A stretch of 50,890 nucleotides of DNA. Source: a virus. Lineage: Duplodnaviria > Caudoviricetes. This document shows, piece by piece, positions 17,606 to 40,021 of this stretch. The position numbers and the translations under genes were made by a program. The stretch lies in the IMG/VR virus record IMGVR_UViG_3300037584_001746, positions 1 through 50,890 of that record; one strand, given 5' to 3'. Numbering within the stretch: position 1 is the stretch's first letter; each line of letters opens with the position of its first letter. The notes beneath the pieces are model-generated. The model saw only the letters and a program-made list of their open reading frames with translations, was not told where the DNA came from and did not search any database.

Positions 17606-17606
17606 T

Positions 17607-18900: not shown

Positions 18901-18918
18901 CTCCTTATGGTCGCCTGA

Positions 18919-19104
18919 TTAAACGTCATTCATTTGAATGGCGCGTCTTAAAACTCTGTTTCTTTCTGATTGTGATAGTTCAGAAATTACATTGAGAACC
19001 TTGATTGCATATCTACGCTCATGTTGAGCAGTAAATGTCTTGGTTCTTGGTTTTTTCAGCCCTAGCTTTTTTAGGGTTTCTGAATCAAGTTCTTCTATAT
19101 TCAT
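18919..19104 (-). CDS. Hypothetical protein
   Basis: 61 aa; ACGGAGGCGACC-ATG leader. Confidence 0.75.
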   Translation of the reverse strand: MNIEELDSETLKKLGLKKPRTKTFTAQHERRYAIKVLNVISELSQSERNRVLRRAIQMNDV

Positions 19105-19133
19105 GGTCGCCTCCGTAAATAGAGACTGAGGGC

Positions 19134-19427: not shown

Positions 19428-19461
19428 TTTTTTCTCCGTGGTTTGGTCTTTCAATATAGTT

Positions 19462-20457: not shown

Positions 20458-20487
20458 TTTAGGCCTCCGTTAGTTTCTATAGAAAAC

Positions 20488-21927: not shown

Positions 21928-22181
21928 ATGAGATTCTCCTGTCGTGGATCGTGGGTCAGGGGCTTCCATGTAATATCTACAAGCTGATATGAACCCCCAA
22001 ACTTAGATTGGTGATTTTGACCAGTGGGTTTTAATGCTTTCAATTCATCAACTGAAAGCTCCATGATTTGTTCTTTATGAAATAAACGCAAACCGCCTTT
22101 CTTAATTGCGGCTTGCACTTCATAATCACGCACCGAAACAAATCGCCCCTTCCAAAGTTTATTGACTTGCTTGGTTTTCAT
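21924..22181 (-). CDS. Hypothetical protein
   Basis: 85 aa, coupled to neighbours. Confidence 0.7.
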   Translation of the reverse strand: MKTKQVNKLWKGRFVSVRDYEVQAAIKKGGLRLFHKEQIMELSVDELKALKPTGQNHQSKFGGSYQLVDITWKPLTHDPRQENLI

Positions 22182-22647
22182 TTGTGATTTCCCTTGTCGT
22201 TATTTCTGGCTCTTTATAAGAACCTTCGTACATCTGCTTGCCTAAACCAAAAAGTGAAAGGCATTTAACCATACACCGCATTTTAGAATCACTGATATCT
22301 CTGGCATCGGGATTGGTTACTGCATCATGTTTGTAATTCGTTACCGCAAGCCACATATTTCTGCTAACGCCATTTATTGTTATTGTGCAATGAACGCTAC
22401 AACATTCATTAGGGTAATACATAACATCGTAGACTTTCCCACCACGATCGAATCGCTCAAATTCAATCTCGTAATCAGGGTAATGCTCTGCCAAAATTCT
22501 CAAGGCTACAGACCATTTCAGATAGAATAATTTTGTTACTTCTCCAGTTTGCCTATTTTTGGCTTCATTGAAAGAAACATCATTTGGATCAAATTCTATA
22601 TTAGAGAATGTTTCCCAAATTTGTTTATAAATTAATTGTTTAGTCAT
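22159..22647 (-). CDS. Single-strand annealing recombinase (Sak3/DUF1071-like)
   Basis: YLKWS.A...MWLAVTNYKH...DISDSKMRCMVKCLSLFGLG. Confidence 0.8.
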   Translation of the reverse strand: MTKQLIYKQIWETFSNIEFDPNDVSFNEAKNRQTGEVTKLFYLKWSVALRILAEHYPDYEIEFERFDRGGKVYDVMYYPNECCSVHCTITINGVSRNMWLAVTNYKHDAVTNPDARDISDSKMRCMVKCLSLFGLGKQMYEGSYKEPEITTREITNENQASQ

Positions 22648-23404
22648 TGGTCGCCTCCATGCTCCAAAGGGTTTTTGCGATTTCTCGCTCGTTATCTGAC
22701 CATTTCCAATGGTCAAGATCGGGATATACAAGCTGACAACATTCAATGATATCGTTGCTGTAAGATAAAATTCTTTCTAAGGCTTTAGCCGCAATGGTGA
22801 ATTGATGTATGTGATAATTGACATTTTGTATTTCAAAACTGGTAACGCCTTTTTTAGATATGTAATCAATTACTGGCACTCTTTTTAATGCGTGTCCGTA
22901 AATTGATCCTTGTCTTGCGTGAGCGAATGATAATTTGCTAACAGCATTGCCTGTTTTCATATCACGAACCTTTTCACCCAATCTTAAATCGTAATAACCA
23001 ATTATTGGTACAGGTATGTCTGGCAACATAACCGTTACTTTGCCTTGTGCGGATTCGTATGGCTCTGATAATTCGGTATAATATTCTTTTGCAGATTTTA
23101 TGAACGCCTCAAGGTCGCCTCGTTCTTTTTTTAGCTTGGCTTCTGGCTGTTCATTTTTTGATTGTTTTGATTCGAGGTCAAATAAGCGTTGCGCTTCTGA
23201 TGTTAAATCGTCAAGTTTAAGGTCAGGGTTTTGCATCCATCTGGTTATGGTTTTATCAACCGCTGTTCCGCGCCATGCAGATGCGCCAACACCGCCATCT
23301 AATTTCCCAGCAATCTTCATTAAGCATCTGGCGGGTTGTTCTATGAACAGATTAATGGTGCTTGCAGATAAGTGCATAACATCATGGTTTTCAAAATGGT
23401 TCAT
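22640..23404 (-). CDS. PD-(D/E)XK exonuclease
   Basis: HLSASTIN...RGTAV...IGYYD...DMKT...Q..IY. Confidence 0.85.
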   Translation of the reverse strand: MNHFENHDVMHLSASTINLFIEQPARCLMKIAGKLDGGVGASAWRGTAVDKTITRWMQNPDLKLDDLTSEAQRLFDLESKQSKNEQPEAKLKKERGDLEAFIKSAKEYYTELSEPYESAQGKVTVMLPDIPVPIIGYYDLRLGEKVRDMKTGNAVSKLSFAHARQGSIYGHALKRVPVIDYISKKGVTSFEIQNVNYHIHQFTIAAKALERILSYSNDIIECCQLVYPDLDHWKWSDNEREIAKTLWSMEATND

Positions 23405-23476
23405 GGTCGCCTCTAAAGTTATCTAATAATCGTTATAGTAATTAAATAACCTATAAAGTAAACCCCAATTTGGGAT

Positions 23477-23505
23477 TAGACACAAAAATAAAATGCTGAT
23501 AACTT
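23477..23505 (+). promoter_or_regulatory. Putative rightward promoter for Cro-like gene
   Basis: TAGACA-17-TAACTT ending 6 nt before ATG 23512 (possibly leaderless). Confidence 0.5.
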
Positions 23506-23511
23506 AAAAAA

Positions 23512-23724
23512 ATGTTATTGAAAGATTATTTATTGAAGCAAAATATAAAGGCAAAAGATTTTGCAAACCAGATTGGTTGCTCTTATGGCGGGGTTATGAA
23601 GTGGTTGTCTGGCGATAGATTTCCAAGGCCATTACATATTCATCATATTGAAAGAGAAACAAATGGTGCGGTCACGGCAAACGATTTCCAAAAACAAATA
23701 TCGAGCGATAAAAACAGTCGTTGA
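23512..23724 (+). CDS. Cro/YdaS-like HTH regulator
   Basis: LKDYL...FANQIG...KWLSG.RFP...TNGAVTANDF. Confidence 0.85.
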   Translation: MLLKDYLLKQNIKAKDFANQIGCSYGGVMKWLSGDRFPRPLHIHHIERETNGAVTANDFQKQISSDKNSR

Positions 23725-24007
23725 TGGTATTACCTTTCATTCTAAAAAAGAAGCAGAGCGTTATAAGATATTAGCGTTGCTCGAATCGCAAGGTAAAATT
23801 GATAATCTCAGATTACAGCCACGATTTCCGTTAATGGTCAATGGTGTAAAGATTGGTCATTACGTTGGTGATTTTATGTATTCATTGAACGGTAGGGAAA
23901 TTTTAGAAGATGTTAAAAGCAAAGTAACGAGAACGCCTGTCTATAAAATTAAGAAAAAGATTCTTGAAACCTATGACCCTCCTGTGGTCATCACAGAAAT
24001 TTCTTGA
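23663..24007 (+). CDS. DUF1064-family endonuclease
   Basis: NKYRA...VDGITFHSKKEA...LQPRF...YVGDF.Y...EDVK; start uncertain. Confidence 0.85.
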   Translation: MVRSRQTISKNKYRAIKTVVDGITFHSKKEAERYKILALLESQGKIDNLRLQPRFPLMVNGVKIGHYVGDFMYSLNGREILEDVKSKVTRTPVYKIKKKILETYDPPVVITEIS

Positions 24008-24070
24008 TATAATCTGTTAGTCAAAAGACAAGTTACAGTCCATCGGGGCTACCAATAAAAAGGTAATCTG

Positions 24071-24556
24071 ATGGTTGTTGCTGAAGTGCTAACTGGAATT
24101 GCGCTTGTTCAAAAAAGTGTCGAGTTCATAAAATCAAATATATCAACAGCAAACGATATTCGTGACATTGCGAGTTCGATTGACGATCTGTTTGCTGGCG
24201 AAAAACAAACACAACAAGCTAGAAATAAAAAATCAAGTGGGTCAGGACTTGGTGACCAGTTTGGGGTTGATACAGTTGCAAAAGAGGTAATTGATGCGCG
24301 CCTTGCTCAAGAGAAATTGCAAGAGGTCGCAACGCTGGTTGATTTACGATTTGGTCATGGAACATGGAGTGGCATTGTGGCAGAAAGAGCAAAGAGAATT
24401 CAAGAGGCTAAAGAAGCCGCCGCCGCAGAACGTAGACGAATAATAAAAGAGGCTAGAGAGTTTGAAGAAAATATGAAACAGTGTGCAATCGTTGCATTTG
24501 TAATTATTGCGGCAATCGGTCTTTTTGTTGGATTATTTATGGTGATTTTAAAATGA
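24071..24556 (+). CDS. Coiled-coil protein with C-terminal membrane anchor
   Basis: 161 aa; hydrophobic C-terminus. Confidence 0.7.
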   Translation: MVVAEVLTGIALVQKSVEFIKSNISTANDIRDIASSIDDLFAGEKQTQQARNKKSSGSGLGDQFGVDTVAKEVIDARLAQEKLQEVATLVDLRFGHGTWSGIVAERAKRIQEAKEAAAAERRRIIKEAREFEENMKQCAIVAFVIIAAIGLFVGLFMVILK

Positions 24557-24891
24557 CACAGAAAAAATTACAGCGTGGCTCCCGCTATGAACAACATGAT
24601 CTTGATGGTGACGGCATTGTGACTGATGATGAAATCGCCAGAGAGGAGCGAATGATAAAATTAGAGAACGCAGACAAGATGCAAGACCAGCAACGGTTGA
24701 TCTGTTGGGTCAGCGTCATATCAAGTGCAGTCTGTATTTTATTGGTGGTTTCTCCCCTGATAGGAGACCAGAGAGTGCCTTTAGTTACATCATTGCTATC
24801 AACCTATGTCGTAGCAAACATGGGCATCGTGGCGGCTTTTATGGGGGCGACAGCCTTTACCAGAGTCAAAGAAAATGGAACGCACACCTAA
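24553..24891 (+). CDS. Two-TM membrane protein with EF-hand-like loop
   Basis: DLDGDGIVTDDE then two hydrophobic segments. Confidence 0.7.
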   Translation: MTQKKLQRGSRYEQHDLDGDGIVTDDEIAREERMIKLENADKMQDQQRLICWVSVISSAVCILLVVSPLIGDQRVPLVTSLLSTYVVANMGIVAAFMGATAFTRVKENGTHT

Positions 24892-24962
24892 AGAATGGCA
24901 GTCCTTGGTTTTTAATTTTAAGTTAAGAATTGCGGCTATCAAAGAGTTGATGGAATCAGAAT

Positions 24963-25151
24963 ATGGGGCGGTGGAAAACGAGAAAACGAAAATTGGAGAG
25001 GTGGGAAAAACCAACAACGCGAGTTCATCAAAACCATCAGTGTAAGGTTTGCGGTTCTACCCTTGCTTGTTATTCGTTTGATAATGGTAAAACTTGGTAT
25101 TGTTCAGAACATAAAGAAATCGGAGAAGCCGCAAAGCCTCCCCGATTCTAA
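24963..25151 (+). CDS. Small zinc-finger-like protein
   Basis: CKVC...WYCSEH. Confidence 0.55.
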   Translation: MGRWKTRKRKLERWEKPTTRVHQNHQCKVCGSTLACYSFDNGKTWYCSEHKEIGEAAKPPRF

Positions 25152-25156
25152 CCGCC

Positions 25157-25615
25157 TTATCTTACCACGGAGTTGGCGGTTTGTTCTTCTTCATCATCTG
25201 GCAAATATTTGCGTTGCCCGATTGGTGCAAAAATCCATTTTCCAGAATTATCTTTCGGATTTTCAGCATAACATTTATTGCAGTACCATTGACCTTCAGA
25301 ATATACAGCCAAGAACAATTCGCCTATAGTTTGAGGCGCACCACCACAGCATCTACATGGGTCGCCATGCCAAGTGTACCAATAATGGCTTCCTTGGTTT
25401 TCAGTGCCAATATGGTCTTTGAACCCATGAAGTATCATTGTTCGTGTTTTTGAAGAATGGTCTAGTTCTCGTCTGATTTGTGTGAATCTCTTGAAGTCTT
25501 TTTTTAATTCAGCATGAGTTTTGTTACAGCATAAACACCTATTCTGATGAACCTTTTTCCCATCTACAATTTTGAACCATTCACCCTTATGGTTATTAAG
25601 TGCCGTATTCATCAT
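25157..25615 (-). CDS. Cysteine-rich hypothetical protein
   Basis: CLCC, CRCC and CNKC motifs. Confidence 0.7.
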   Translation of the reverse strand: MMNTALNNHKGEWFKIVDGKKVHQNRCLCCNKTHAELKKDFKRFTQIRRELDHSSKTRTMILHGFKDHIGTENQGSHYWYTWHGDPCRCCGGAPQTIGELFLAVYSEGQWYCNKCYAENPKDNSGKWIFAPIGQRKYLPDDEEEQTANSVVR

Positions 25616-25956
25616 AAATCCCCCTCAAATCCAATGATTGAAGATTCTTCATTCATGAGTTCATATTGACTGAAGTCATGGCAGTTATCTAACATCAGTT
25701 TATCCGCATCTTGGTCATTCAAATATTCGTGTACATATTGATGATGCCAATTTTCTCCAGATTCATCAATTTGAGTGGTTACGTTGTCGTATTCGTCATA
25801 TACATTCCAAACCTTGAGGCCATCTACAATTTTGAAATCATGTTCTTGGTCTGAAACATAATCAGTCGCCCATGCTTTTAAGTGTGCCTCATCAATCGTG
25901 ACATTAATTTGGAATTTTTTGGTGTCGACCTTTTCAATGTTTACGGTAATGTCCAT
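25612..25956 (-). CDS. Acidic hypothetical protein
   Basis: 114 aa, coupled to neighbours. Confidence 0.7.
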   Translation of the reverse strand: MDITVNIEKVDTKKFQINVTIDEAHLKAWATDYVSDQEHDFKIVDGLKVWNVYDEYDNVTTQIDESGENWHHQYVHEYLNDQDADKLMLDNCHDFSQYELMNEESSIIGFEGDL

Positions 25957-26231
25957 TATACACACTCCCAAGCTTGCTCAAGCCAACGCTGTGCTGTTTC
26001 AAAGTCAGGTGCGCCAACCGCAAGTGTCGCATTGATGGCGGCTAGTTTTTCTGCTTTTTCTTGCCTTAAATCTTCTTCAAGGGTTATCTGCAAGCCCTGA
26101 ATGGCAGATGCGTAATCTTCAAAAGCCCAGCCCTCTGTATGGCGAGGTCTTACGCCATGAACATCTTTGAAGGTGTCGCTATATGCCTGTGCCATGTCTT
26201 CGGTGGTTGCGGCTCTAATAAAATCGGTCAT
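25956..26231 (-). CDS. Conserved phage hypothetical protein
   Basis: YSDTFKDVHGVRPR...GAPDFETAQRW; CCACGGAG RBS. Confidence 0.75.
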   Translation of the reverse strand: MTDFIRAATTEDMAQAYSDTFKDVHGVRPRHTEGWAFEDYASAIQGLQITLEEDLRQEKAEKLAAINATLAVGAPDFETAQRWLEQAWECV

Positions 26232-26245
26232 TTTGGTCTCCGTGG

Positions 26246-26416
26246 TTATTTGATAATTTCAATTTGTGTAGGTTTAACAATTTTGGGTTTTTTGTTAGAA
26301 ATAGAAATTACAATTTCATCATGCTTCCATTTGTTAATATCATTCTTAGGAGTTATCTTAATCACCTTGCCAATGGTGTTTCTAACCCTAACAATGTTTC
26401 CGATTTGAATATTCAT
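26246..26416 (-). CDS. Small SH3/KOW-like hypothetical protein
   Basis: IQIGNIVRV...GKVIKI; CCACGGAG RBS. Confidence 0.6.
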   Translation of the reverse strand: MNIQIGNIVRVRNTIGKVIKITPKNDINKWKHDEIVISISNKKPKIVKPTQIEIIK

Positions 26417-26451
26417 TTTAGTCTCCGTGGTTTGGTTCAATCAATATATAT

Positions 26452-26479
26452 ATATTACCATAATGTTTTCATATGTCAA
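26452..26479 (-). promoter_or_regulatory. Sigma70-like leftward promoter P3
   Basis: TTGACA-16-TAATAT with TGn extension; 29 bp identical to P4. Confidence 0.75.
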
Positions 26480-26504
26480 CAATATATGTAAAAAAATATC
26501 ATTT

Positions 26505-26822
26505 TTAATTAGAAAAAATATGCGCTTCTAGTTCTTCGTCTGTCAGGTCATCAAAATCTGGTTCTATTTCTAAACTAGGCATTGGTTTTCTTGGCCTGAG
26601 TATTCTTTTACCATTGCGTGAAAATTTGTTTTTTATTGTGGTTTTTGGTTTTTTCTTAACGTTTTTTTCTACCGCTGGGTAAATAAAGACGCTTTCCATA
26701 GTAAAAAATTTTGTTTTGCAATCTAAACATTCCCGCCTTCTGGTTTTACCATCTGGCATATCTTTGGGTGTGTAAGCAGAAACCTTATGATTTCTTGATG
26801 AACAGGTTGGGCAATGCAACAT
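26505..26822 (-). CDS. NrdR-like zinc-ribbon protein lacking ATP cone
   Basis: HCPTC...RRRECLDCKTKFFTME. Confidence 0.7.
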   Translation of the reverse strand: MLHCPTCSSRNHKVSAYTPKDMPDGKTRRRECLDCKTKFFTMESVFIYPAVEKNVKKKPKTTIKNKFSRNGKRILRPRKPMPSLEIEPDFDDLTDEELEAHIFSN

Positions 26823-26923
26823 ATTTTTATCTTAATAAGCCAAGCATCTTTCGGTCAATGGTTTACAGCAAAAGATTTGTAGATTACCTTGTGATTTAGG
26901 CGACCAACAATACGGAGGTATTT

Positions 26924-27550
26924 ATGAGTTTTGATGCGATGTCTTGGGCGGCAAAACAGTCCTGTAAAAATTCTCTTACGAAATTAGTTCTATTAATGCT
27001 CGCCAATTATTCAGACGAGAACAATTCTACATATCCAAGTTACAAACATCTTGCAAAATTATGTGAGTGTAATGAGCGTTCTATAATGAGGGCTATAAAG
27101 TCATTATATGATGATGGCCTTGTATCGGTTGAAAAAAGATTTACTGATACTGGAAAGCAGACAAGCAATAGATTTATTTTAAATATGAATAGGGGTGACA
27201 GAATCGACACTCAGAGGGTGACAAATAAGACACCCAATACTATTAGAGTTATACAAGAAGATAAAACAAAGAGGGGTGACAAATATGTTCCTGAGTTTTT
27301 AGAATGGTGGAACGCATATCCTCGTAATGATGGCTCAAAAGCCAAGGCATATGAAGTTTGGAAAAGGGTTGTAGATAAAGATATTGACGTAAGGGATTTA
27401 TTTTTAAAGACCTGTAGGTTCAAAAGAACAACCATTGGAAAAGATAAAAAATTTATACCTCATGCCACAACGTGGTTGAATCAAAAAAGATGGGAGACAG
27501 TGCAAGAGGAGCAATCTATAAGTAAAAATAAAAACCAATTAGCGGGGTGA
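26924..27550 (+). CDS. Replication initiator (N-terminal HTH)
   Basis: KLVLLMLANY...YPS...LA; FLEWWNAYP...PHATTWLNQKRW. Confidence 0.85.
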   Translation: MSFDAMSWAAKQSCKNSLTKLVLLMLANYSDENNSTYPSYKHLAKLCECNERSIMRAIKSLYDDGLVSVEKRFTDTGKQTSNRFILNMNRGDRIDTQRVTNKTPNTIRVIQEDKTKRGDKYVPEFLEWWNAYPRNDGSKAKAYEVWKRVVDKDIDVRDLFLKTCRFKRTTIGKDKKFIPHATTWLNQKRWETVQEEQSISKNKNQLAG

Positions 27551-27554
27551 CCAA

Positions 27555-29327
27555 ATGCAAAAATTACTTGATAATAGAATACAATTACGCAACTGGAAAG
27601 TTGGCGATCACAAGACCACTTGTCCAGAATGTTCCCATACGAGAAAAAATAAAACAGACCAGTGCCTTTCGGTAACGATAGAGCCTGATGGTGGTGCGGT
27701 ATGGAAATGCCACCATTGCGAATGGTCTGGGGCTGTGGCTGGGGCTAACTATAAACCAGATGGGCAATATGTGAAGCCAGTAGAATATAAACGCCCCACG
27801 CCGCCAAAACAGGCTGATGCAGAAAGCCAGCCAATGATTGAATGGTTCAAAAGGCGCGGCATAAGCAAAGAAACTGTTGCAGCATTTCAGATTACTAGAA
27901 CAAGCAATTGGTTCGGGAATGGTGAAGAGGCCTGTTATGCGTTCCCCTATCACAAGGATGGGCAACTGGTTAACATAAAATATAGAACCAAGGATAAGAA
28001 GTTTAGACAGGAGAATGGGGCAGAGAGAACGCTGTTCAATATGGATGCTGTTAAAAAGTGGTGGGATGAAACAGGCTCAAAGACAGTAATTTTTGTTGAG
28101 GGTGAAATGGATGTGCTTTCTATGTGGGAAGCTGGTTTTATATATGCAGTTACATTGCCAGATGGCGCACCCAAGACTGCAAAATTTGATGAACATGATA
28201 AAAGATTTCAAGCATTGCAGAATTGTGAATGGTTGCATGAGGCGGAGAAGGTAATAATAGCCGTTGATGCAGATGAGGCGGGGCAAGCGTTGAAGCTGGA
28301 ATTGATACATCGGTTCGGTAAAGACCGTTGCTGGACAATAGAGTACCCAAATAATCACGACATACAATGCAAGGATGCGAATGAATGTTTAGTGGAGCAT
28401 GGAGCCGATGTGTTAAGGGAGATTATAGGATTGGCGGCTCCACACCCCATAGACGGATTATACACTGTTAAAGATTACGAAAAAGAGGTTTTCAATATTT
28501 ATGATGGCAATGTTCAAAAAGCCATATCTACTGGTTTTGCATCATTAGATGAAATTTATAAGGTCATGCCATCTACATTCGCCATTGTAACTGGCATCCC
28601 AAATCATGGGAAATCTAATTTTATAGATCAGCTTTCAGTAAATCTAGCCAAGAACCATGGTTGGAAATTCGCCATTTTTTCACCAGAACACAGTACAGCC
28701 AATCATATAAGGCGGTTGTCAGAAAAGGTGATGGCAAAGCCGTTTGATTTCGGACCAAACCCAAGAATGACAAAAGAAGAACTTACAGAGGCTATGTTAT
28801 TTTTAGATAATAGGTTTCATTTTATAGAAAGCGAAGATTCATTACCAACAATAGATTGGCTGTTAACAAAGGCTAAATCAGCGTGCCTTAGGCATGGCGT
28901 TAAAGGAATTATAATTGACCCATATAATGAAATTGACGCTACCAGAGATGGAAACAAAAGAGAGGATGAGCATATCCGTGATTTGGTAAGCAGATGCAAA
29001 CAGTTCTGTAGAACTCACGAGGTTGCCATGTGGATGGTTGCCCACCCCGCAAAAATGCAAAGAGGCTCAGATGGAGTGTACCCGCCCCCAAGTCTTTACG
29101 ATATATCAGGTTCAGCGCATTGGAATAATATGTGTGATGTGGGAATAGTGGTTCACAGAGACTTCGAGGCCGATCAGACGCGGGTTATTATCCGAAAAAT
29201 CAGGGAACAGGGGCTGTATGGTTCGATAGGCGAGGCGTTCTTTAGGTACAACCTTACGCGGCATATCTATGAGGCAGAGTTAATACAGCAAGAAGCAGTG
29301 AGCCATTTTGGAGATACAGATGTTTGA
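27555..29327 (+). CDS. Primase-helicase (T7 gp4/Twinkle-like)
   Basis: CPEC...CHHC Zn finger; TOPRIM VEGEMD, DADEAG, KDANE; Walker A GIPNHGKS; IIIDP; VAHP; GS. Confidence 0.92.
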   Translation: MQKLLDNRIQLRNWKVGDHKTTCPECSHTRKNKTDQCLSVTIEPDGGAVWKCHHCEWSGAVAGANYKPDGQYVKPVEYKRPTPPKQADAESQPMIEWFKRRGISKETVAAFQITRTSNWFGNGEEACYAFPYHKDGQLVNIKYRTKDKKFRQENGAERTLFNMDAVKKWWDETGSKTVIFVEGEMDVLSMWEAGFIYAVTLPDGAPKTAKFDEHDKRFQALQNCEWLHEAEKVIIAVDADEAGQALKLELIHRFGKDRCWTIEYPNNHDIQCKDANECLVEHGADVLREIIGLAAPHPIDGLYTVKDYEKEVFNIYDGNVQKAISTGFASLDEIYKVMPSTFAIVTGIPNHGKSNFIDQLSVNLAKNHGWKFAIFSPEHSTANHIRRLSEKVMAKPFDFGPNPRMTKEELTEAMLFLDNRFHFIESEDSLPTIDWLLTKAKSACLRHGVKGIIIDPYNEIDATRDGNKREDEHIRDLVSRCKQFCRTHEVAMWMVAHPAKMQRGSDGVYPPPSLYDISGSAHWNNMCDVGIVVHRDFEADQTRVIIRKIREQGLYGSIGEAFFRYNLTRHIYEAELIQQEAVSHFGDTDV

Positions 29328-30165
29328 TGGGTTTACGAAAGCGCCAGACATTCGGGGGCATGAGCGTATTGTTGAATGGTTTGAAGGCACAGACTCCGTT
29401 GAGGGTTTGCCAGAGAATTATGTGATCGCAACAGATACCTATTATGCTAATTACAAAACACACCGAAAAAAGGGTTCAAAAATAAACCAAAGCATCAATG
29501 AAGAATACATCCCAGTGGTTGGGGGCTTAATTGAAGCGAGCAAGGTTGGGCGTGATGAACCAGATGTGTTCTACAAAATGCTGGCAAAAAAGACAGACCA
29601 GTATTCAAGTTCATTTCACGGGAACACCCATGACATAGGTTGCACTATGTTGTTTGTACGGACAGACCAAAAGCAGTTGACCAAGCGTGTTTTCAAATTG
29701 AAATTGAGAGTGCAAGGTGAGGTATATGATCTGTTTCATTTTATGGGCAGGCATAAACCGTGGTCAGAAAATCTCACAAATGCCAAATTGTTTTTATCAA
29801 CATCAATGAAACTGCATTATGAGCCAGACCGTCAATTTAAATTGCTCAAAATTAGGCAGAAAGCACAGCGGGTATCAAAGAAACGATACGAGCATCATCA
29901 GGCTATAAAAAACCAAACGCCACGCTGGGCTGATAGGTTTAAAATCAATGCAATTTATATGGAAAGATCAAGGCGAAATAAACGAGACGGTAAGAACACT
30001 TGGCACGTTGACCATATTTTTCCACTTACCTATCGTAGCAAGTGCGGCATTGAAGGTTCTGGATTGCATATTCATCAGAACCTTAGAATTGTCTCAAGAC
30101 AATATAATCTAAAAAAATCAAATAAATTTGTTGTAGATGAGGCAGAAATAAATGAAAAACTCTAA
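29320..30165 (+). CDS. HNH endonuclease with N-terminal extension
   Basis: TPRWAD...HVDHIFPL...GLHIHQNL...NLKKSNK. Confidence 0.8.
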   Translation: MFDGFTKAPDIRGHERIVEWFEGTDSVEGLPENYVIATDTYYANYKTHRKKGSKINQSINEEYIPVVGGLIEASKVGRDEPDVFYKMLAKKTDQYSSSFHGNTHDIGCTMLFVRTDQKQLTKRVFKLKLRVQGEVYDLFHFMGRHKPWSENLTNAKLFLSTSMKLHYEPDRQFKLLKIRQKAQRVSKKRYEHHQAIKNQTPRWADRFKINAIYMERSRRNKRDGKNTWHVDHIFPLTYRSKCGIEGSGLHIHQNLRIVSRQYNLKKSNKFVVDEAEINEKL

Positions 30166-30700
30166 TAGGCAGATAGATGATTTTTACCCTACACCGCCAG
30201 AGGCAACAAAGGCACTGTTAGATAGACAGGAATTTGAGCGAGATATTTGGGAGCCAGCGTGTGGGAATGGCGCAATAAGCAATGTTTTGGCGCAAAGAGG
30301 TCACAATGTGATAAGCACAGACCTTAATGATTTTGGATTTGGAAAAACAAATATTGATTTCCTCATGGAGCAAAAGGCTCTTGCATCAAATGTTATTACA
30401 AACCCACCATTTAAACTTGCGAACGAATTTGTACATAAGTGCATAGAATTGAAAATAGATAAATTTGCATTTTTACTTCGGTTGGCGTTTTTAGAAGGGC
30501 AGTCACGAAAATCTGAAATTTATGATGTTTTCCCGCCTTCTCATATACTTGTGTTTTCTAAAAGACTTACAATGTGGCGGGGAGATGAGGAAAAGCCAGA
30601 AAAATCTACAGGCACGACAGCGTATGCTTGGTTTATATGGTCAAAGATTATGAACGAGGGAATGTTATTACACAGACATACAAGGGTTGGTTGGATTTAA
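30152..30700 (+). CDS. DNA amino-methyltransferase (probably m6A)
   Basis: DDFYPTP; WEPACGNG (motif I); ITNPPF (motif IV); YAWFIW. Confidence 0.85.
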   Translation: MKNSNRQIDDFYPTPPEATKALLDRQEFERDIWEPACGNGAISNVLAQRGHNVISTDLNDFGFGKTNIDFLMEQKALASNVITNPPFKLANEFVHKCIELKIDKFAFLLRLAFLEGQSRKSEIYDVFPPSHILVFSKRLTMWRGDEEKPEKSTGTTAYAWFIWSKIMNEGMLLHRHTRVGWI

Positions 30701-30703
30701 TAC

Positions 30704-30731
30704 TAGACAACACAATATATTGTGATAATAT
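30704..30731 (+). promoter_or_regulatory. Promoter of candidate sRNA
   Basis: TAGACA-16-TAATAT with TGn extension; predicted +1 near G30738. Confidence 0.65.
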
Positions 30732-30737
30732 TTTCTT

Positions 30738-30829
30738 GCAATCGCATGATTGCCTCCGTGGTGAATGGTTTGGTCGCCTACACCAATGGTTTTTAGGGGA
30801 TTGGGCTTCGGCTCAGTCCCCTTTATTTT
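30738..30829 (+). ncRNA. Candidate trans-acting anti-RBS small RNA
   Basis: Promoter, 5' hairpin GCAATC-gcat-GATTGC, seeds GCCTCCGTGGT and TTGGTCGCCTA complementary to 16 early-gene leaders, terminator. Confidence 0.7.
30795..30829 (+). terminator. Intrinsic terminator
   Basis: GGGGATTGGGC-TTCG-GCTCAGTCCCC followed by TTTATTTT. Confidence 0.85.
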
Positions 30830-30889
30830 GTTTATTTTTTATCGTATAGTTTTTATATCCCAATATGGGGAGCAACAAAAGGCTATCAC

Positions 30890-31537
30890 ATGAACATAGA
30901 AACCATACAGCTAGATCAGCTTACGCCATACCAAAAAAACCCCAGAAAAAACCCAAATGCAGAAAAGGTGGCGGCATCAATACAAGAGTATGGGTTTCAG
31001 CAACCCATCGTTGTAGATAAAAACCTTGTTATTGTTGTGGGTCACACGAGATATGCGGCATCTAAAATATTAGGTTTAAAAGAAGTGCCTGTGGTAGTTG
31101 CTGATTTAGACGAAAAGAAGGCTACAGCATACAGAATAGCCGATAATAGGCTCAATCAAGATACCGATTGGGAATATAAGTTCCTCACAGAAGAATTAAA
31201 CGACCTCATCAATGGTGATTTTGATTTAAGCAAATTAGGTTTTGAAGATGCGGAACTTGATAGCTTATTATCTATAGATGATGTTCAAGCGGATTGGTTT
31301 AAGCCAGAAGAGCATTGGAATGATATGCCATCATTCGACCATCAAGACCTGAAGCCTTACAGGACAGTCGTTATTCATGTGCGAAACTCTGATGATTTGG
31401 CGGACTTGTCGCAAAGAATAGGGCAAGATATCAAAGACAGTGAACAAGAAAAACGCAATGGCGTTCCAGTGACCTCTATGTGGCATCCAGTAAGAATAAA
31501 TGATGTATTAAAAGATAAGGGATACACAAGTGAATAA
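30890..31537 (+). CDS. ParB/Srx N-terminal domain protein
   Basis: PYQKNPR...SIQEYGFQQPIVVD...IVVGHTR...YRIADNRL. Confidence 0.88.
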   Translation: MNIETIQLDQLTPYQKNPRKNPNAEKVAASIQEYGFQQPIVVDKNLVIVVGHTRYAASKILGLKEVPVVVADLDEKKATAYRIADNRLNQDTDWEYKFLTEELNDLINGDFDLSKLGFEDAELDSLLSIDDVQADWFKPEEHWNDMPSFDHQDLKPYRTVVIHVRNSDDLADLSQRIGQDIKDSEQEKRNGVPVTSMWHPVRINDVLKDKGYTSE

Positions 31538-32411
31538 TCCGCAATTTCCCTTATACATCCCATCAAAGGGAAGGGCAGATAGCAGATTAACTGCAAAGGC
31601 ACTAGATTCAATGCAGGTGCCATATCGCCTTGTGATAGAAGAACAAGAATACAAAGACTATTTAGAGCATGTAGATAAAGATAAGCTACTTATTTTAGAT
31701 AAAAAATTTCAAGATGAATACGATACCTGTGATGACCTTGGCGCAACTCGTAGCAAGGGACCAGGAGCCGCGCGAAACTTTATTTGGGAACATGCGATTT
31801 CTGAGGGGCACGCTTGGCATTGGGTGATGGACGACAACATCAAGTCGTTTCGCAGATGGAGAGATAACAAGCGCATCAAGTGCTATGATGGAACGCCATT
31901 CAAGGCTATGGAAGATTTTGTGCTTCGCTACAAGAATGTTGCTATGGCGGGTCCGAATTATATGTTCTTTGTTGTAGACAAGTGGGCAAAAGATTACGGA
32001 CCATTCACAGTCAACACCAGAATTTACTCATGCAATCTAATCCGTAATGATGTTCCTTTCAGATGGAGGGGCAGATATAACGAAGATACAGACCTATCGC
32101 TTCAGATGCTAAAGGCTAAATGGTGTACAATACAGTTCAATGCCTTTCTGCAAGAAAAAGCAAATACCCAAACTGTTAAGGGCGGTAATACACAAGAATT
32201 TTACGCCAAAGAGGGAACCGCGCCAAAATCTGCAATGCAAATGAGGCTTCACCCAGATGTAAGTAAAATGGTATGGCGATATGGTAGACCTCATCATCAT
32301 GTGAACTACAATAAATTCAAAAAAGAAAATCGGCTAATACTGAAAGATGATTACGTTGTAAAACAGGGAGTTAATGAATACGGAATGAAATTAAAAACCA
32401 TAAGGTCGTAA
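31530..32411 (+). CDS. GT-A glycosyltransferase, TET-associated/GREB1-like family
   Basis: YIPSKGRA...ARN...WVMDDNI...RIYSCNLI...YNEDTDL...KGGN. Confidence 0.8.
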   Translation: MNNPQFPLYIPSKGRADSRLTAKALDSMQVPYRLVIEEQEYKDYLEHVDKDKLLILDKKFQDEYDTCDDLGATRSKGPGAARNFIWEHAISEGHAWHWVMDDNIKSFRRWRDNKRIKCYDGTPFKAMEDFVLRYKNVAMAGPNYMFFVVDKWAKDYGPFTVNTRIYSCNLIRNDVPFRWRGRYNEDTDLSLQMLKAKWCTIQFNAFLQEKANTQTVKGGNTQEFYAKEGTAPKSAMQMRLHPDVSKMVWRYGRPHHHVNYNKFKKENRLILKDDYVVKQGVNEYGMKLKTIRS

Positions 32412-34455: not shown

Positions 34456-36848
34456 TGGCTGGCATCAAAGATTTTTTCAAATTTTTACAACGTGACACAA
34501 TAGAGATAAAAGAAGCTCCACAAGTTGTATTAAGCGTGAATAACGCTCACCATTATCGCAAAGATAATTATGAGGCTTACGCAGACGAAGGCTATAGGCA
34601 AAATGCTGTAGTGTATCGTTGCATTAACGAGATAGCCAATGGCGCGGCTTGCATCCCATTCAAGTTATTTCAGGGTGACGATGAATTAGATCAGCACCCA
34701 TTGCTGGCATTGTTGAAAAGGCCAAACCCATCACAAGCGGGTGTTGAGTATTTCCAAGCTGTATATTCGTATTTGTTGTTATCTGGAAATAATTACGCCA
34801 TTCGATCTGATGTAGGCGGTGAGGTGCGAGAACTTTATCTTTTGCGTCCAGATCGTGTGAGAGTGAAGCCATCCAAAACCTCAACCCCAGAAGCCTATGA
34901 GTATGTTCTTGGCGGCAAGGTGGTCAAAACATATGATGCAGACCCAATCACAGGGGAATCTGAAGTTAAGCATATGAAGCTGTATAATCCGTTAGATGAT
35001 TATTATGGGTTATCGCCTCTTATGGCGGCGGCAGTAGATATTGATAATCATAACGCCATCAATAAGCATAATATCAGCTTATTAAACAATGGCGCAAGAC
35101 CAAGCGGTGCTATCGTATTCAAGCCACAAAGTGACAGGGGCTTACCAATACAGTTATCGGATGGGCAACGCCAACAATTAAGGGATGATTTGAATGTCAA
35201 ATATACTGGCGCGGCTAATGCGGGAAAGCCGTTATTACTGGAAGGTGATTTTGATTGGCGTGAAATGGGTCTTACACCTAAAGACATGGATTTTCTGCAA
35301 CAGAGAAACATGGCGGCAAAGGATATCGCTCTTTGTTTTGGGGTGCCAAGTCAACTTATTGGCATACCAGACGCGCAGACGTATGCGAATGTCCAAGAAG
35401 CGCGGCTAGCTCTTTACGAGGAAACAATAATGCCGCTAGCCCGACGGGTGCAGTCTGATTTGAATGAATGGTTGGCTCCTGTATATGGTGAAGAAATACG
35501 AATAGAGTATGATTTTGAAGCAGTGCCAGCAATGGTTGAAAGAAGGCGGCGAATATACGAAAACGTCACTCAAGCAGTAAGAGAAGGGATTATTTCAAGG
35601 AATGAGGCAAGAGAGCGTTTAGGTCTTGAGCCAATACAGGGAGGTGATGATGTCTATATCGCGGCTAATCTTTTTCCTCTGGGAAGCACAGAAGCCGAAC
35701 CAACCCAAGGACAGGAGGCTGAACAGGATGCGGAAAAAGCTTACGGAATTATTGACGAAAGCAAAGCGAAAGTTGCAAAGGATGTATTTACAACTGAAAG
35801 TGAGGCTCAAGCTAGGGCTGAAGAAATAGGCTGTTTCGGTACTCACTTCCATGATACAGACAACGGCAAGGTGTATATGCCTTGCGCCAGTCATGCGGAC
35901 TACAGAAGGCTCACAGGCACAGATTTAACAACACCAAAGCAATCAAAAGAACGTGTAGCTCGTGATGTATTTACAACAGAAGACGAGGCCGCAGAAAGAG
36001 CTGAAGAAATTGGATGTTTTGGCACTCATTTTCACGATACCGATAACGGCAGGGTATTTATGCCATGTGCCAGCCATGCAGATTATAGACGTTTGGTTGG
36101 CGAAGATTTAGAAACTCCAAAGCAAGATGAGGAACTCGGTGATGATGCGAAGGCGGAATCAGATGTTGATACAACGCCAACTGACGCAATGGCGAAAGAG
36201 GCTGAACGCGGTCTTGCCATGCGCAAAGAGTTCAACCGAGGGGGAACAGAAGTCGGTGTCGCAAGAGCAGTCCAGCTTGTCTCCAAAGAAAGATTGTCGC
36301 CTAGAACGGTAAGGCGAATGCACAGTTTTTTTAGCCGCCATGAGGTAGATAAAAGAGCCGAAGGTTTCCGCCGAGGTGAAGAAGGTTATCCAAGCGCAGG
36401 GAAAATCGCTTGGCTGTTATGGGGTGGCGATGCTGGTCAAACATGGGCTAGGCGTACAGCCGCAAAGTTAGACAAAGAACGTGATGGTAAAAATGATATA
36501 TTAGAGGACATTCAGCCAATTGATAATCATTTTGAAGAAAAGGCTGTAAAAATAAGCGAATCTGTAAAAAAAGGGTTAGCAAAAAAAGTAAAAGAACATA
36601 ACGATAAGCATGGTGACAAAAAAGGTAAGCGCGTTACATTGCGTATGCTTTCTGCTGTATTCCGTAGAGGTGTTGGAGCATATAATACAAATCCATCATC
36701 TGTTAGACCAAGCGTCTCAAGTTCCGATCAATGGGCATATGCAAGGGTAAACGTATTTTTAGGGGCGGTGCGAACTGGTAGATTTAAGCGTGCCAAGTTT
36801 GATACTGACCTTTTACCGAAAGGTCACCCTCTCAGAACAGGCGATTGA
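34455..36848 (+). CDS. HK97-family portal protein with long C-terminal extension
   Basis: VYRCI...LLSGNNY...LRPDRV...YGLSP...NGARPSG...FGVP...SRNEAR; ~380 extra aa. Confidence 0.92.
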   Translation: MAGIKDFFKFLQRDTIEIKEAPQVVLSVNNAHHYRKDNYEAYADEGYRQNAVVYRCINEIANGAACIPFKLFQGDDELDQHPLLALLKRPNPSQAGVEYFQAVYSYLLLSGNNYAIRSDVGGEVRELYLLRPDRVRVKPSKTSTPEAYEYVLGGKVVKTYDADPITGESEVKHMKLYNPLDDYYGLSPLMAAAVDIDNHNAINKHNISLLNNGARPSGAIVFKPQSDRGLPIQLSDGQRQQLRDDLNVKYTGAANAGKPLLLEGDFDWREMGLTPKDMDFLQQRNMAAKDIALCFGVPSQLIGIPDAQTYANVQEARLALYEETIMPLARRVQSDLNEWLAPVYGEEIRIEYDFEAVPAMVERRRRIYENVTQAVREGIISRNEARERLGLEPIQGGDDVYIAANLFPLGSTEAEPTQGQEAEQDAEKAYGIIDESKAKVAKDVFTTESEAQARAEEIGCFGTHFHDTDNGKVYMPCASHADYRRLTGTDLTTPKQSKERVARDVFTTEDEAAERAEEIGCFGTHFHDTDNGRVFMPCASHADYRRLVGEDLETPKQDEELGDDAKAESDVDTTPTDAMAKEAERGLAMRKEFNRGGTEVGVARAVQLVSKERLSPRTVRRMHSFFSRHEVDKRAEGFRRGEEGYPSAGKIAWLLWGGDAGQTWARRTAAKLDKERDGKNDILEDIQPIDNHFEEKAVKISESVKKGLAKKVKEHNDKHGDKKGKRVTLRMLSAVFRRGVGAYNTNPSSVRPSVSSSDQWAYARVNVFLGAVRTGRFKRAKFDTDLLPKGHPLRTGD
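35772..36125 (+). repeat. Two tandem Cys/His repeats (183-nt period) in the portal tail
   Basis: DVFTTE.EA..RAEEIGCFGTHFHDTDNG.V.MPCASHADYRRL twice. Confidence 0.9.
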
Positions 36849-38655: not shown

Positions 38656-38832
38656 CTAGCCAAATTCTGGGTGAGATGGCGGCTCTGCCAATACAAAGCC
38701 CATTTCTGTCATTTTTTGCCTAATAGATATATCAATATCACTCATTGACCTCGCCCCTTCTCTGATTGATTCTTGATATGCCTTGTCGTAGGCGGCTTTT
38801 ACGACATCTTTATTTTGTTCTGTAAAATACAT
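38656..38832 (-). CDS. Hypothetical protein (58 aa); not in ORF track
   Basis: MYFTEQNKDVVKAAYDKAYQESIREG...HPEFG*; GGAGG RBS. Confidence 0.6.
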   Translation of the reverse strand: MYFTEQNKDVVKAAYDKAYQESIREGARSMSDIDISIRQKMTEMGFVLAEPPSHPEFG

Positions 38833-39342: not shown

Positions 39343-39520
39343 CTCTTACCTCTTTTCGTACCTGATAAGAACCGCCATCTACATGGCTGATGTCTCCAGA
39401 GCCGCGTGAGATAGAGAATGTGGTGTATTCTTTAACAAAGCCAAGATATTCGTAGCCGTGATTATCGGCAAAATATCTGGCGCATCTTTCATTACGAAAT
39501 CTAAGTATTTGTTCGGTCAT
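39329..39520 (-). CDS. Hypothetical protein
   Basis: 63 aa; CCACGGAGGCGACC-ATG leader. Confidence 0.75.
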   Translation of the reverse strand: MTEQILRFRNERCARYFADNHGYEYLGFVKEYTTFSISRGSGDISHVDGGSYQVRKEVRDEAV

Positions 39521-39535
39521 GGTCGCCTCCGTGGT

Positions 39536-39983: not shown

Positions 39984-40021
39984 TGGTCTCTCCGTGGTTT
40001 AATTAATCATTCAATATAATC

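What the first reader, a model, noticed from the sequence alone, without database searches (positions are those of the whole stretch)
30704..30829. Candidate phage sRNA with two seeds antisense to the ribosome-binding sites of an early/replication regulon
Seen: the gap between the methyltransferase and parB holds a complete small + strand unit. It has a promoter (TAGACA 30704-30709, 16 bp, TGn-TAATAT 30726-30731), a predicted +1 at G30738 that begins hairpin GCAAUC-gcau-GAUUGC, seed 1 GCCUCCGUGGU (30752-30762), seed 2 UUGGUCGCCUA (30770-30780, in the loop of a UGGUG/CACCA stem), and a cUUCGg terminator with U-tract. The seeds are reverse complements of motifs in the leaders of 16 genes, including an 11-nt perfect match UAGGCGACCAA plus ACGGAGG before the + strand replication initiator (26897-26918) and ACCACGGAGGCGACCAUG at 39520. 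In this unit the motifs lie antisense to the predicted transcript. Established: base-pairing sRNAs block translation by occluding the Shine-Dalgarno region. Inference: one RNA shuts off recombination, regulatory and replication genes together (early-to-late switch or quiescence/immunity), possibly in place of the CI repressor I cannot find. Alternative: read leftward, the same bases form a leader for a 14-codon ORF (MRLQENIITIYCVV, ATG 30747), but the promoter and terminator polarity favour a rightward RNA.
Basis: partly seen in the sequence, partly recalled or inferred. Interest (0 to 1): 0.92.

Follow-up and report, generated by a model that had tools for sequence, protein, structure and literature searches.

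The report
Candidate phage sRNA against early-gene start sites
A marine phage carries a small, strongly conserved RNA gene whose core is the mirror image of a sequence tag found at the ribosome-binding sites of its early and replication genes, so one RNA could switch that whole gene set off; no expression data exist yet.

Summary
The 189-bp gap between a methyltransferase-like gene and a ParB_N gene contains a + strand unit. It has a TAGACA-16-TGnTAATAT promoter, a 5' hairpin, a second stem-loop and the best intrinsic terminator in 25-41 kb.

Across four lineages the variation fits an RNA gene:
- The -35 (0/12 columns variable), the -10 (1/9) and a 31-nt core (0/31) are conserved.
- The spacer (7/16), the hairpin-1 loop (4/4) and the terminator (15/28) vary. 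Two lineages carry a different terminator hairpin.
- Third codon positions of the flanking genes vary at 45-57%.

Both small ORFs fail in relatives.

The core is antisense to a repeated start-site motif (consensus ACCACGGAGGCGACCATG). At least 9 nt of perfect complementarity occurs in 11 of 80 start regions: 10 early or replication genes and 1 late gene. Random windows reach this 0.7% of the time.

The replication-initiator leader pairs in two parts (11 nt + 7 nt).

The unit sits at the replication/packaging border, like lambda PR'-6S-tR'.

Best reading (about 0.5): a trans-acting sRNA that blocks translation of early and replication genes. Expression, direction of the effect, timing and host are untested. 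The suggested replacement of CI has no support.

The parts
30704..30709 (+). -35-like hexamer TAGACA, starting 4 nt after the methyltransferase-like gene's stop codon (30698-30700)
   Evidence: The 12 columns 30698-30709 are invariant in 4 lineages.
30710..30725 (+). 16-nt promoter spacer of constant length and variable sequence. In the window only, it holds the palindrome CACAATATATTGTG (30712-30725).
   Evidence: 7 of 16 columns are variable. Position 30711 is C>T in the variant seen in runs X4-X7.
30723..30731 (+). extended -10, TG-n-TAATAT
   Evidence: flags TG. 1 of 9 columns is variable, and it is the n position. The same promoter is called in L002 and L003.
30738..30753 (+). predicted +1 (G30738) and 5' hairpin GCAAUC-GCAU-GAUUGC
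   Evidence: Stems: 1 of 12 columns variable (G-C to G-U). Loop: 4 of 4 variable. The distance from the -10 to the G is constant, while 4 of the 6 bases between them vary.
30754..30784 (+). invariant 31-nt core holding both seeds
   Evidence: 0 of 31 columns are variable in 4 lineages, against 104/182 and 96/215 variable third codon positions in the flanking genes. The X4-X7 variant shows no change here.
30752..30762 (+). seed 1, GCCUCCGUGGU, antisense to ACCACGGAGGC. It is partly paired in hairpin 1 and stem 2.
30765..30780 (+). seed 2 as extended here, AUGGUUUGGUCGCCUA, antisense to UAGGCGACCAAACCAU. UUUGGU forms the exposed loop of stem-loop 2 (30756-30789).
30795..30830 (+). intrinsic terminator: 12-bp stem, CUUCGG loop, U tract. 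It also ends the replication operon 26924-30700.
   Evidence: The G-U pairs weaken the hairpin on the minus strand. L003 keeps the terminator. L002 and L197 have a different 14-bp hairpin with an 11-nt loop plus UUUAUUUU, which the scan does not call.
30840..30871 (+). two invariant blocks between the terminator and parB: TATCGTATAGT and the near-palindrome TCCCAATATGGGGA. They may be late-operon control elements.
   Evidence: Both are unique in the window.
26897..26926 (+). replication-initiator leader, the best predicted target: TAGGCGACCAA (11 nt against seed 2), CAAT, ACGGAGG (against seed 1), then the ATG at 26924
   Evidence: E1 -17.7, E2 -19.7 kcal/mol. The boxes are kept and the spacers vary in G1/G2 and L084; the C>U change keeps a G-U pair.
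39520..39535 (-). start region ACCACGGAGGCGACCAUG of a 63-aa early gene
   Evidence: (E1 -26.5, E2 -21.8). It is invariant in G2.
39984..39998 (-). start region AAACCACGGAGAGACCAAUG, first gene after the early promoter at 40049
26417..26436 (-). start region AACCAAACCACGGAGACUAAAAUG, first gene after the early promoter at 26479
   Evidence: It is invariant in G1/G2.
26232..26246 (-). start region AACCACGGAGACCAAAAUG
19428..19448 (-). start region GACCAAACCACGGAG..AUG, first gene after the early promoter near 19490
   Evidence: 10-nt match.
19104..19116 (-). start region ACGGAGGCGACCAUG
22647..22657 (-). start region GGAGGCGACCAAUG of the Sak-type single-strand annealing protein gene
23404..23413 (-). 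start region GAGGCGACCAUG of a 254-aa gene
18908..18916 (-). AGGCGACCA box 22 nt upstream of the DUF932 gene's ATG
20458..20470 (-). start region ACGGAGGCCUAAAAUG, first gene after the early promoter near 20516

Best explanation
The gap encodes a roughly 85-92-nt + strand small RNA. It is made from its own sigma-70-type promoter, and probably also as the 3' end of the replication operon. It ends at a shared intrinsic terminator.

Its invariant core is the antisense of a start-associated tag (ACCACGGAGGCGACCAUG and sub-forms). That tag marks the ribosome-binding regions of about 16 early and replication genes, including the first gene behind each of the four repeated early promoters and the replication initiator.

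The RNA pairs with these regions. Pairing is probably nucleated by the exposed UUUGGUC loop against GACCAAA and then extended over the Shine-Dalgarno sequence.

Shown here: the anatomy, the conservation pattern, and the biased complementarity.

Inferred: that the RNA is transcribed, that pairing happens in vivo, that the effect is repression, and the timing.
For: 1. Transcription signals are in the right order and are conserved as signals.
   - The -35 shows 0/12 variable columns, TGnTAATAT 1/9 (the n), the spacer 7/16 and the 6 nt before +1 4/6.
   - The same promoter is called in L002 and L003.
2. RNA-type conservation.
   - Hairpin-1 stems show 1/12 variable columns (G-C to G-U) and the loop 4/4.
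   - The terminator shows 15/28 variable columns but the hairpin is kept, and two lineages carry a wholly different hairpin.
   - The G-U pairs favour the + strand.
3. The 31-nt core shows 0/31 variable columns, against 45-57% at third codon positions. A further variant differs only in the spacer and the loop.
4. Complementarity.
   - At least 9 nt of perfect match occurs in 11/80 start regions (9/26 early, 1/4 replication, 1/46 late, 0/4 island), against 0.7% of random windows.
   - Duplex energy at or below -17.5 kcal/mol occurs in 12/30 early and replication starts against 1/50 others, Fisher p = 1.4e-5. 1 of 300 shuffles that keep CCUCC reaches the real count.
5. All 4 promoter-proximal early genes have matches of at least 8 nt.
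6. In the replication-initiator leader, the box 17-27 nt upstream of the ATG is not part of the Shine-Dalgarno sequence. It is kept in 3 lineages while the spacers vary, and its one change (C>U) keeps a G-U pair with the RNA.
7. The core and the terminator evolve as independent modules. This is expected for an sRNA and not for an attenuator.
8. Both small ORFs fail in relatives.
Against: - There is no expression evidence of any kind (one search lists no RNA holder).
- Only 4 closely related lineages exist, plus one near-identical variant. Both the core and the targets are invariant, so there is no true compensatory covariation. The one variable core-edge position (30753, C/U) matches a G>A change in one target of G2 (20457) but not a G>C change in another (20816).
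- Much of seed 1 and the flanks of seed 2 are base-paired in the predicted fold.
- Part of the signal is generic anti-Shine-Dalgarno.
- The start regions are related by duplication, so the p-values are inflated.
- A crude energy calculation with accessibility puts only some early genes on top. The replication initiator ranks first at -19.3 kcal/mol, but many motif-bearing genes score above 0. That method over-extends duplexes.
- The promoter looks constitutive, so by itself it does not explain a delay.
- Host and Hfq status are unknown.
- The covariance model found no homologue in 200 loci of more distant ParB or methyltransferase relatives. Those relatives have no such gap.
Confidence: 0.5

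Rival explanations
1. The unit is a cis-acting leader and insulator of the late operon. The terminator stops replication-operon transcription. RNA polymerase that starts at the gap promoter reads through, either because the two-stem-loop leader modifies it (HK022 put-like) or because a phage factor loads there (lambda Q/qut-like). On this reading the short RNA is a by-product like lambda 6S, and its likeness to start regions is secondary.
For: - The unit lies directly upstream of ParB_N, TAGT, small and large terminase, portal and a MuF-like head gene. This is the same place as PR'-6S-tR' in lambda.
- It has two stem-loops right after +1 followed by a strong terminator.
- There is no other consensus promoter between the terminator and parB.
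- Invariant blocks follow the terminator.
Against: - No Q-like or other antiterminator family was found in the PHROGs and Pfam scans of 36 early, replication and island proteins.
- The second late operon (from 40147) has no copy of the leader, and the core is unique in the window.
- No alternative antiterminator pairing is conserved, and the terminator is swapped wholesale in L002 and L197.
- This reading leaves the 11/80 matches of at least 9 nt unexplained.
- The two readings are not exclusive. Passages of bioRxiv 10.1101/2024.10.31.621285 report that lambda 6S is Hfq-bound with targets.
Confidence: 0.17
2. The conserved core acts as DNA. It would be a binding site for a phage protein, similar to a stoperator or operator or to a replication or packaging site. 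That protein would also bind the copies at gene starts. The hairpin and U tract would be only the replication operon's terminator, and no functional sRNA would exist.
For: - Sequence-level invariance of the core cannot by itself tell RNA function from DNA function.
- The motif copies are a repeat family at DNA level (D3 and D6).
- The locus adjoins the ParB_N and terminase genes.
- One-orientation 13-bp stoperators are known in Cluster A mycobacteriophages (mentioned in passages of PMC3203893).
Against: - The copies are locked to start codons and include the Shine-Dalgarno sequence, also inside operons. This points to the mRNA level.
- This reading does not explain the conserved -35 and extended -10, the constant +1 distance, or the hairpin with conserved stems and a free loop just upstream of the core.
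- The core is not palindromic.
Confidence: 0.15
3. The core is a decaying inverted relic of an early leader, for example of the replication-initiator leader, that landed next to a terminator. The promoter match would then be chance.
For: - The reverse complement of the unit reads like a leader: box 2, box 1, then ATG in the window.
- Promoter-like hits are frequent (49 found against 43 expected).
Against: - A relic should decay, yet the core shows 0/31 variable columns where neutral sites vary at 45-57%.
- The ATG is the part that was lost.
Confidence: 0.05
4. The gap codes for a small protein. The candidates are the leftward 14-codon ORF (ATG at 30747) and the rightward 42-codon ORF 30765-30893.
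For: Both ORFs are open in the window.
Against: - The leftward ATG is absent in L002, L197 and L003 and reads GTG in the X4-X7 variant.
- The rightward ORF stops after 10 codons in L002 and L197 (read from the alignments), and it has no Shine-Dalgarno sequence.
Confidence: 0.03

Closest known systems
Phage P1/P7 c4 antisense RNA (immI). Recalled, not read here; one search gave only a listing of papers that mention it.
   Same: It is a small trans-acting phage RNA. Two short complementary stretches pair with two boxes around a ribosome-binding site of a phage gene and block its translation. This is the same logic as the two-part pairing with the replication-initiator leader.
   Different: - As recalled, c4 is processed from a longer transcript and has a single target region (icd/ant), with a role in immunity.
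- Here the RNA has its own promoter, about 16 candidate targets and no link to immunity.
- No Rfam family, c4 included if it is in the library, reached its threshold.
Lambda 6S RNA (PR'-tR') and StxS of Stx phages (passages of bioRxiv 10.1101/2024.10.31.621285)
   Same: These are short terminated transcripts at the head of the late operon. They are reported as Hfq-bound sRNAs, and lambda 6S has one lambda early-operon partner. The genomic position is the same as here.
   Different: - Those units depend on Q antitermination for late expression. No Q-like protein was found here.
- There is no sequence likeness.
- No repeated target tag is described for them.
Start-associated sequences (SAS) of Cluster K mycobacteriophages (passages of PMC3203893, PMC11373665 and PMC12699233)
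   Same: - Each is an asymmetric repeat that contains the Shine-Dalgarno core and extends beyond it.
- It lies a few bases before ATG starts.
- It is confined to non-structural genes.
- It points one way, apart from a single reversed copy that is not at a gene start.
- The authors leave open an RNA or protein ligand.
   Different: - The motif, host and phage lineage all differ.
- In Cluster K no function or ligand is assigned.
- My side check gave mixed support for a reversed-copy RNA there.
T4 RegA translational repressor (recalled; PMC3014915 seen only as a search listing)
   Same: One phage product turns down translation of many early mRNAs by binding their initiation regions.
   Different: RegA is a protein. 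Here the proposed effector is an RNA that reads a shared sequence tag.
sRNAs that share an mRNA's terminator, with their own promoter at the end of the upstream gene (for example DapZ or MicL; recalled)
   Same: The promoter sits at the very end of the upstream coding region, and the terminator is shared with the operon.
   Different: Those are bacterial and Hfq-dependent. Nothing is known here about processing or a chaperone.

Membership tests
trans-encoded base-pairing sRNA with intrinsic terminator | own promoter | tested here: met
   A consensus match with an extended -10. The hexamers are invariant while the spacer varies in 4 lineages. This is prediction only.
trans-encoded base-pairing sRNA with intrinsic terminator | Rho-independent terminator with U tail | tested here: met
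   In L002 and L197 a different hairpin with an 11-nt loop is seen by folding but not by the scan.
trans-encoded base-pairing sRNA with intrinsic terminator | conserved, accessible seed | tested here: inconclusive
   The core shows 0/31 variable columns. Only UUUGGU and two linker bases are predicted to be unpaired.
trans-encoded base-pairing sRNA with intrinsic terminator | complementarity to target ribosome-binding regions beyond chance | tested here: met
trans-encoded base-pairing sRNA with intrinsic terminator | a discrete transcript and a regulatory effect | not testable with these tools
   No RNA run is listed.
lambda-type Q/qut late leader (PR'-6S-tR') | short terminated transcript directly upstream of the late/packaging operon | tested here: met
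lambda-type Q/qut late leader (PR'-6S-tR') | Q-family antiterminator gene in the phage | tested here: not met
   There were no hits in the PHROGs and Pfam scans of 36 early, replication and island proteins. Many small proteins remain without any family.
HK022 put-type antitermination RNA | two stem-loops just downstream of a promoter that make RNA polymerase terminator-resistant | tested here: inconclusive
   Two stem-loops are present. Read-through cannot be tested, and there is no Rfam match.
Any Rfam family (including sX14, the best sub-threshold hit) | score at or above the family's gathering threshold | tested here: not met
   0 matches at gathering thresholds over the whole window. sX14 scores 18.8 bits against a threshold of 80, E 0.35.
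start-associated sequence (SAS)-like target tag | asymmetric repeat containing and exceeding the Shine-Dalgarno sequence, a few nt before ATG, in non-structural genes, in one orientation apart from a lone reversed copy | tested here: met
   (D3, D6). 16 of the 18 matches of at least 7 nt are in early or replication genes. The lone reversed copy is the unit itself.
start-associated sequence (SAS)-like target tag | the Cluster K consensus GGGATAGGAGCCC | tested here: not met
   The motif here is different (ACCACGGAGGCGACC), so this is analogy and not membership.

The most novel reading that the evidence does not exclude
The phage labels its early and replication regulon with a shared start-site tag and carries one small RNA that is the tag's antisense. 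That RNA would be an RNA counterpart of T4 RegA, switching the tagged genes off together and feeding back on the replication initiator whose operon it terminates.

If so, a lone reversed copy of a start-associated repeat would mark such an RNA gene in other phages. This would give the unexplained SAS motifs of Cluster K mycobacteriophages a testable ligand.

In Anaya the single reversed SAS sits in the loop of a GC hairpin. It lies inside a structured 385-bp non-coding gap that is conserved in 182 phage records. However, the loop is diverged in Krueger, which still carries 17 SAS copies, and it is absent in Yuna.
Probability: 0.3. Interest if true: 0.8.

Novelty: new variant of a known kind. 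Interest (0 to 1): 0.6.

Why it matters
Phage sRNAs that act on phage genes are known mostly as one-target antisense RNAs. Examples seen in the review PMC12197685 (section 4) are sar, OOP and aQ.

A single RNA aimed at a sequence tag shared by a whole temporal class would be a compact way to shut off early genes after transcription. It would also explain why some phages keep start-site repeats that go beyond what the ribosome needs. Passages from 2011 to 2025 still call that role unknown.

The claim can be tested with reporters and compensatory mutations without the unknown host. The held paper library gave no paper that joins SAS, mycobacteriophage and small RNA (0 papers). None of the listed titles or abstracts described an anti-tag phage sRNA. 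Papers outside that library were not searched.

Tried and rejected
**Approaches that gave nothing or were weak**
- Rfam gave nothing at gathering thresholds. Only noise appeared at E up to 10.
- Covariance model R1 (56 positions, from 4 sequences) was searched in 200 of the 275 loci then held. It gave one hit at E 2.2 inside a coding region of L084 and nothing else. The other 75 loci were not searched with it.
- An exact-core scan found 0 stretches in genome contigs. In viral contigs it found only the 3 known relatives.
- A looser two-seed pattern gave 32 stretches. Apart from L002 I took them for chance matches and did not inspect them further.
- More distant ParB relatives (27 looked at) and methyltransferase relatives (24 looked at) have no comparable gap. 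Covariation at greater distance could therefore not be tested.
- The look-up of sequencing runs listed no RNA holder.
- Read laying used DNA contigs only. It added one near-identical variant and shows nothing about transcript ends.
- The first duplex calculation, over full length with an accessibility penalty, over-extends duplexes and penalises them. I used it only for the top hit and replaced it with per-seed duplexes and exact-match counts.
- Late-promoter idea: the invariant blocks after the terminator do not recur elsewhere in the window.
- Host: the nearest cultured phage proteins are at most 32% identical, and the DNA search gave only two short weak hits. The host stays unknown.
- Cluster K side check: the reversed SAS lies in a hairpin loop in Anaya, Niklas, Apocalypse and Biglebops. 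It has 2 changes in Hammy. It is diverged in Krueger, where 17 forward SAS copies are kept, and deleted in Yuna. Only 7 of the 182 matching records were aligned. The result is mixed and is not used as support.
- Supplementary figures of PMC3203893 that list the reversed sites could not be seen.

**Readings rejected**
- Small ORFs on either strand.
- A riboswitch-type attenuator, because no conserved alternative pairing exists and the terminator is swapped between lineages.
- A decaying relic.
Full report
**What the window is.** The window is a whole IMG/VR virus record of 50,890 bp, rated 100% complete by CheckV, with 41.8% G+C. DNA runs that hold it are marine metagenomes. No cultured phage is close: the primase/helicase is at most 32% identical to any. 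The host is unknown.

**Gene context**.
- Minus-strand early genes lie at 17030-26822 and 38656-39983. They sit behind four repeated sigma-70-type promoters that share a 44-nt repeat (D2 and D7).
- A + strand replication operon follows: initiator at 26924, primase/helicase at 27555, a 281-aa protein of unknown function, and a methyltransferase-like gene at 30152-30700.
- Then comes the 189-bp gap.
- After the gap the + strand carries ParB_N (30890), a TET-associated glycosyltransferase, small and large terminase, portal and a MuF-like head gene.
- The finding therefore sits exactly at the border between the replication module and the packaging/late module.

**The observation.**
- The promoter-like site TAGACA-16-TAATAT with an upstream TG is listed by the scan.
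- The scan finds 49 promoter-like sites where shuffles give 43, so the scan alone means little.
- The terminator at 30795-30822 is the top-ranked terminator-like site in 25-41 kb.
- The + strand RNA 30738-30829 folds into three modules: a 5' hairpin, a second stem-loop, and the terminator with its U tail. Its energy is -39.3 kcal/mol with z -4.34. The opposite strand gives z -2.42.

**Relatives.**
- ParB- and methyltransferase-based searches and exact-pattern scans found three related lineages. These are L002 (4.7 kb), L197 (a 43-kb metagenome contig), and L003/L004/L196, which equal G1/G2 and are two overlapping fragments of one phage, 75-91% identical to the window in DNA.
- A near-identical variant was seen in four DNA runs.
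- More distant relatives of either flanking gene have no such gap. A covariance model of the 5' 56 nt finds nothing in 200 of their loci.

**Pattern of variation.** This is the main evidence. The table gives variable columns among the four lineages.

| Segment | Variable columns |
|---|---|
| Third codon positions, methyltransferase-like gene | 104/182 |
| Third codon positions, ParB | 96/215 |
| Stop codon plus -35 | 0/12 |
| Promoter spacer | 7/16 |
| TGnTAATAT | 1/9 (the n) |
| Six bases before +1 | 4/6 |
| Hairpin-1 stems | 1/12 (G-C to G-U) |
| Hairpin-1 loop | 4/4 |
| Core 30754-30784 | 0/31 |
| Terminator | 15/28 |

- L002 and L197 carry an unrelated 14-bp hairpin followed by UUUAUUUU. 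The scan misses it because of its 11-nt loop.
- The extra variant differs at 30711 (spacer) and 30747 (loop) and nowhere in the core.
- This is what a + strand RNA gene predicts. Signals and stems are kept, spacers and loops are free, and the terminator is replaceable.
- It is not what an attenuator predicts, because there the terminator would have to co-evolve with the leader. It is not what a decaying relic predicts either.

**Small ORFs.**
- The leftward 14-codon ORF has no ATG in any of the three relatives. In the near-identical variant its start reads GTG.
- The rightward 42-codon ORF stops after 10 codons in L002 and L197.

**The targets.**
- The motifs are the ribosome-binding regions of early genes.
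- They fall into sub-forms of one tag: AAACCACGGAGA..., ACGGAGGCGACCATG and ACGGAGG....
- On the + strand these appear as direct-repeat families. The gap copy is the only member that is not at a gene start (D3 and D6).
- Among 80 curated start regions, at least 9 nt of perfect complement to core nt 11-52 occurs in 11. These are 9 of 26 early, 1 of 4 replication, 1 of 46 late and 0 of 4 island. At least 7 nt occurs in 18 (14, 2, 2 and 0). Random windows give 0.7% and 6.6%.
- Per-seed duplex energies at or below -17.5 kcal/mol occur in 12 of 30 early and replication starts against 1 of 50 others (Fisher p = 1.4e-5).
- Shuffled cores that keep CCUCC average 4.3 such start regions against 13 for the real core. 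1 of 300 shuffles reached 13. The signal is therefore more than generic anti-Shine-Dalgarno.
- The start regions are related by duplication, so the p-values overstate independence.
- The first gene behind each of the four early promoters has a match of at least 8 nt.
- The replication-initiator leader pairs in two parts: an 11-nt stretch, a 4-nt spacer, then a 7-nt stretch.
- Its upstream box lies outside the Shine-Dalgarno region. It is kept in G1/G2 and L084 while the spacers change, and its one substitution keeps a G-U pair.
- The start tags are as invariant in G1/G2 as the core is. That fits mutual constraint but gives no compensatory proof.

**Structure caveat.** Only the UUUGGU loop and two linker bases are predicted to be open. 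I therefore propose loop-first pairing with GACCAAA, which many of the tags contain. This step is inference.

**Mechanism and rivals.**
- The best reading is a trans-acting sRNA that occludes the tagged start regions. It would be made from its own promoter and probably also as the 3' end of the replication operon, whose first gene is its best target.
- The main rival is a cis role as late-operon leader and insulator. The position is that of lambda PR'-6S-tR'.
  - No Q-like protein was found, although many small early proteins match no family.
  - The second late operon has no such leader.
  - The rival leaves the complementarity unexplained.
  - The two readings can coexist. Passages of a 2024 preprint report that lambda 6S is an Hfq-bound RNA with one early-operon partner.
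- A DNA-site reading cannot be excluded from sequence alone, but it does not explain the promoter and hairpin pattern.

**What is known.**
- Rfam holds no match.
- The unit works like the c4 RNA of P1/P7 (recalled, not read here).
- It sits where lambda 6S and StxS sit.
- The target tag is the same kind of thing as the start-associated sequences of Cluster K mycobacteriophages. In passages from 2011, 2024 and 2025, authors call their role unknown. They also note a lone reversed copy that is not at a gene start.

**Cluster K side check.**
- In Anaya the reversed copy lies in a structured 385-bp non-coding gap, in the loop of a GC hairpin. The fold of that region has z -4.37.
- The region is conserved in 182 phage records.
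- Among the 7 phages aligned, the loop is kept in 4, altered in 2 and deleted in 1. Krueger keeps 17 forward copies despite a diverged loop.
- That check is suggestive at best.

**Verdict.** The unit is a real, conserved small RNA gene candidate with a non-trivial, class-biased antisense relation to early start sites. It is a new variant of a known kind. Its function is unproven, and expression data are the missing piece.

Noticed in passing
window 17030-17605 (-), 30152-30700 (+), 30890-31537 (+), 31530-32411 (+): A 2OG-Fe(II) oxygenase, a methyltransferase-like protein, a ParB_N protein and a TET-associated glycosyltransferase occur together. They look like a DNA hypermodification set split between the early and late modules.
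   Followed up: no
window 19475-19518, 20501-20544, 26464-26507, 40034-40077: Four copies of a 44-nt repeat carry TTGACA and the sequence around it on the minus strand. These are four early promoters with a shared flanking sequence, possibly an operator.
   Followed up: partly
window 30840-30850 and 30858-30871: Two blocks between the terminator and parB are invariant in all relatives: TATCGTATAGT and the near-palindrome TCCCAATATGGGGA. Both are unique in the window. They could be a late promoter or a regulator site.
   Followed up: partly
window 30712-30725: A perfect 14-bp palindrome, CACAATATATTGTG, fills the spacer of the gap promoter in the window only. It is not kept in L002 or L003.
   Followed up: no
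L278 34684-35067 (Mycobacterium phage Anaya, record 59683-60066): - The single reversed start-associated sequence of Anaya lies in a non-coding, strongly folding gap (z -4.37), in the loop of a GCGCGG/CCGCGC hairpin on the + strand. It follows an invariant TAGACT.
- The region matches 182 Cluster K phage records.
- The loop is kept in 4 of 7 aligned phages, altered in Hammy and Krueger, and deleted in Yuna.
   Followed up: partly
window 26505-26822 (-): A 105-aa protein with an NrdR-like zinc ribbon is transcribed divergently from the replication initiator. It has no Shine-Dalgarno sequence or tag before its ATG and may be a regulator.
   Followed up: no
window 35781-36125 (+): A 162-nt imperfect direct repeat (75% identity) lies inside the portal gene's C-terminal part, where Pfam sees DUF3721 twice.
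   Followed up: no
window 14097-14113 (+): One late gene (ATG at 14111) carries ACGGAGGCA before its start. It is the only late start region with a match of at least 9 nt to the core.
   Followed up: no
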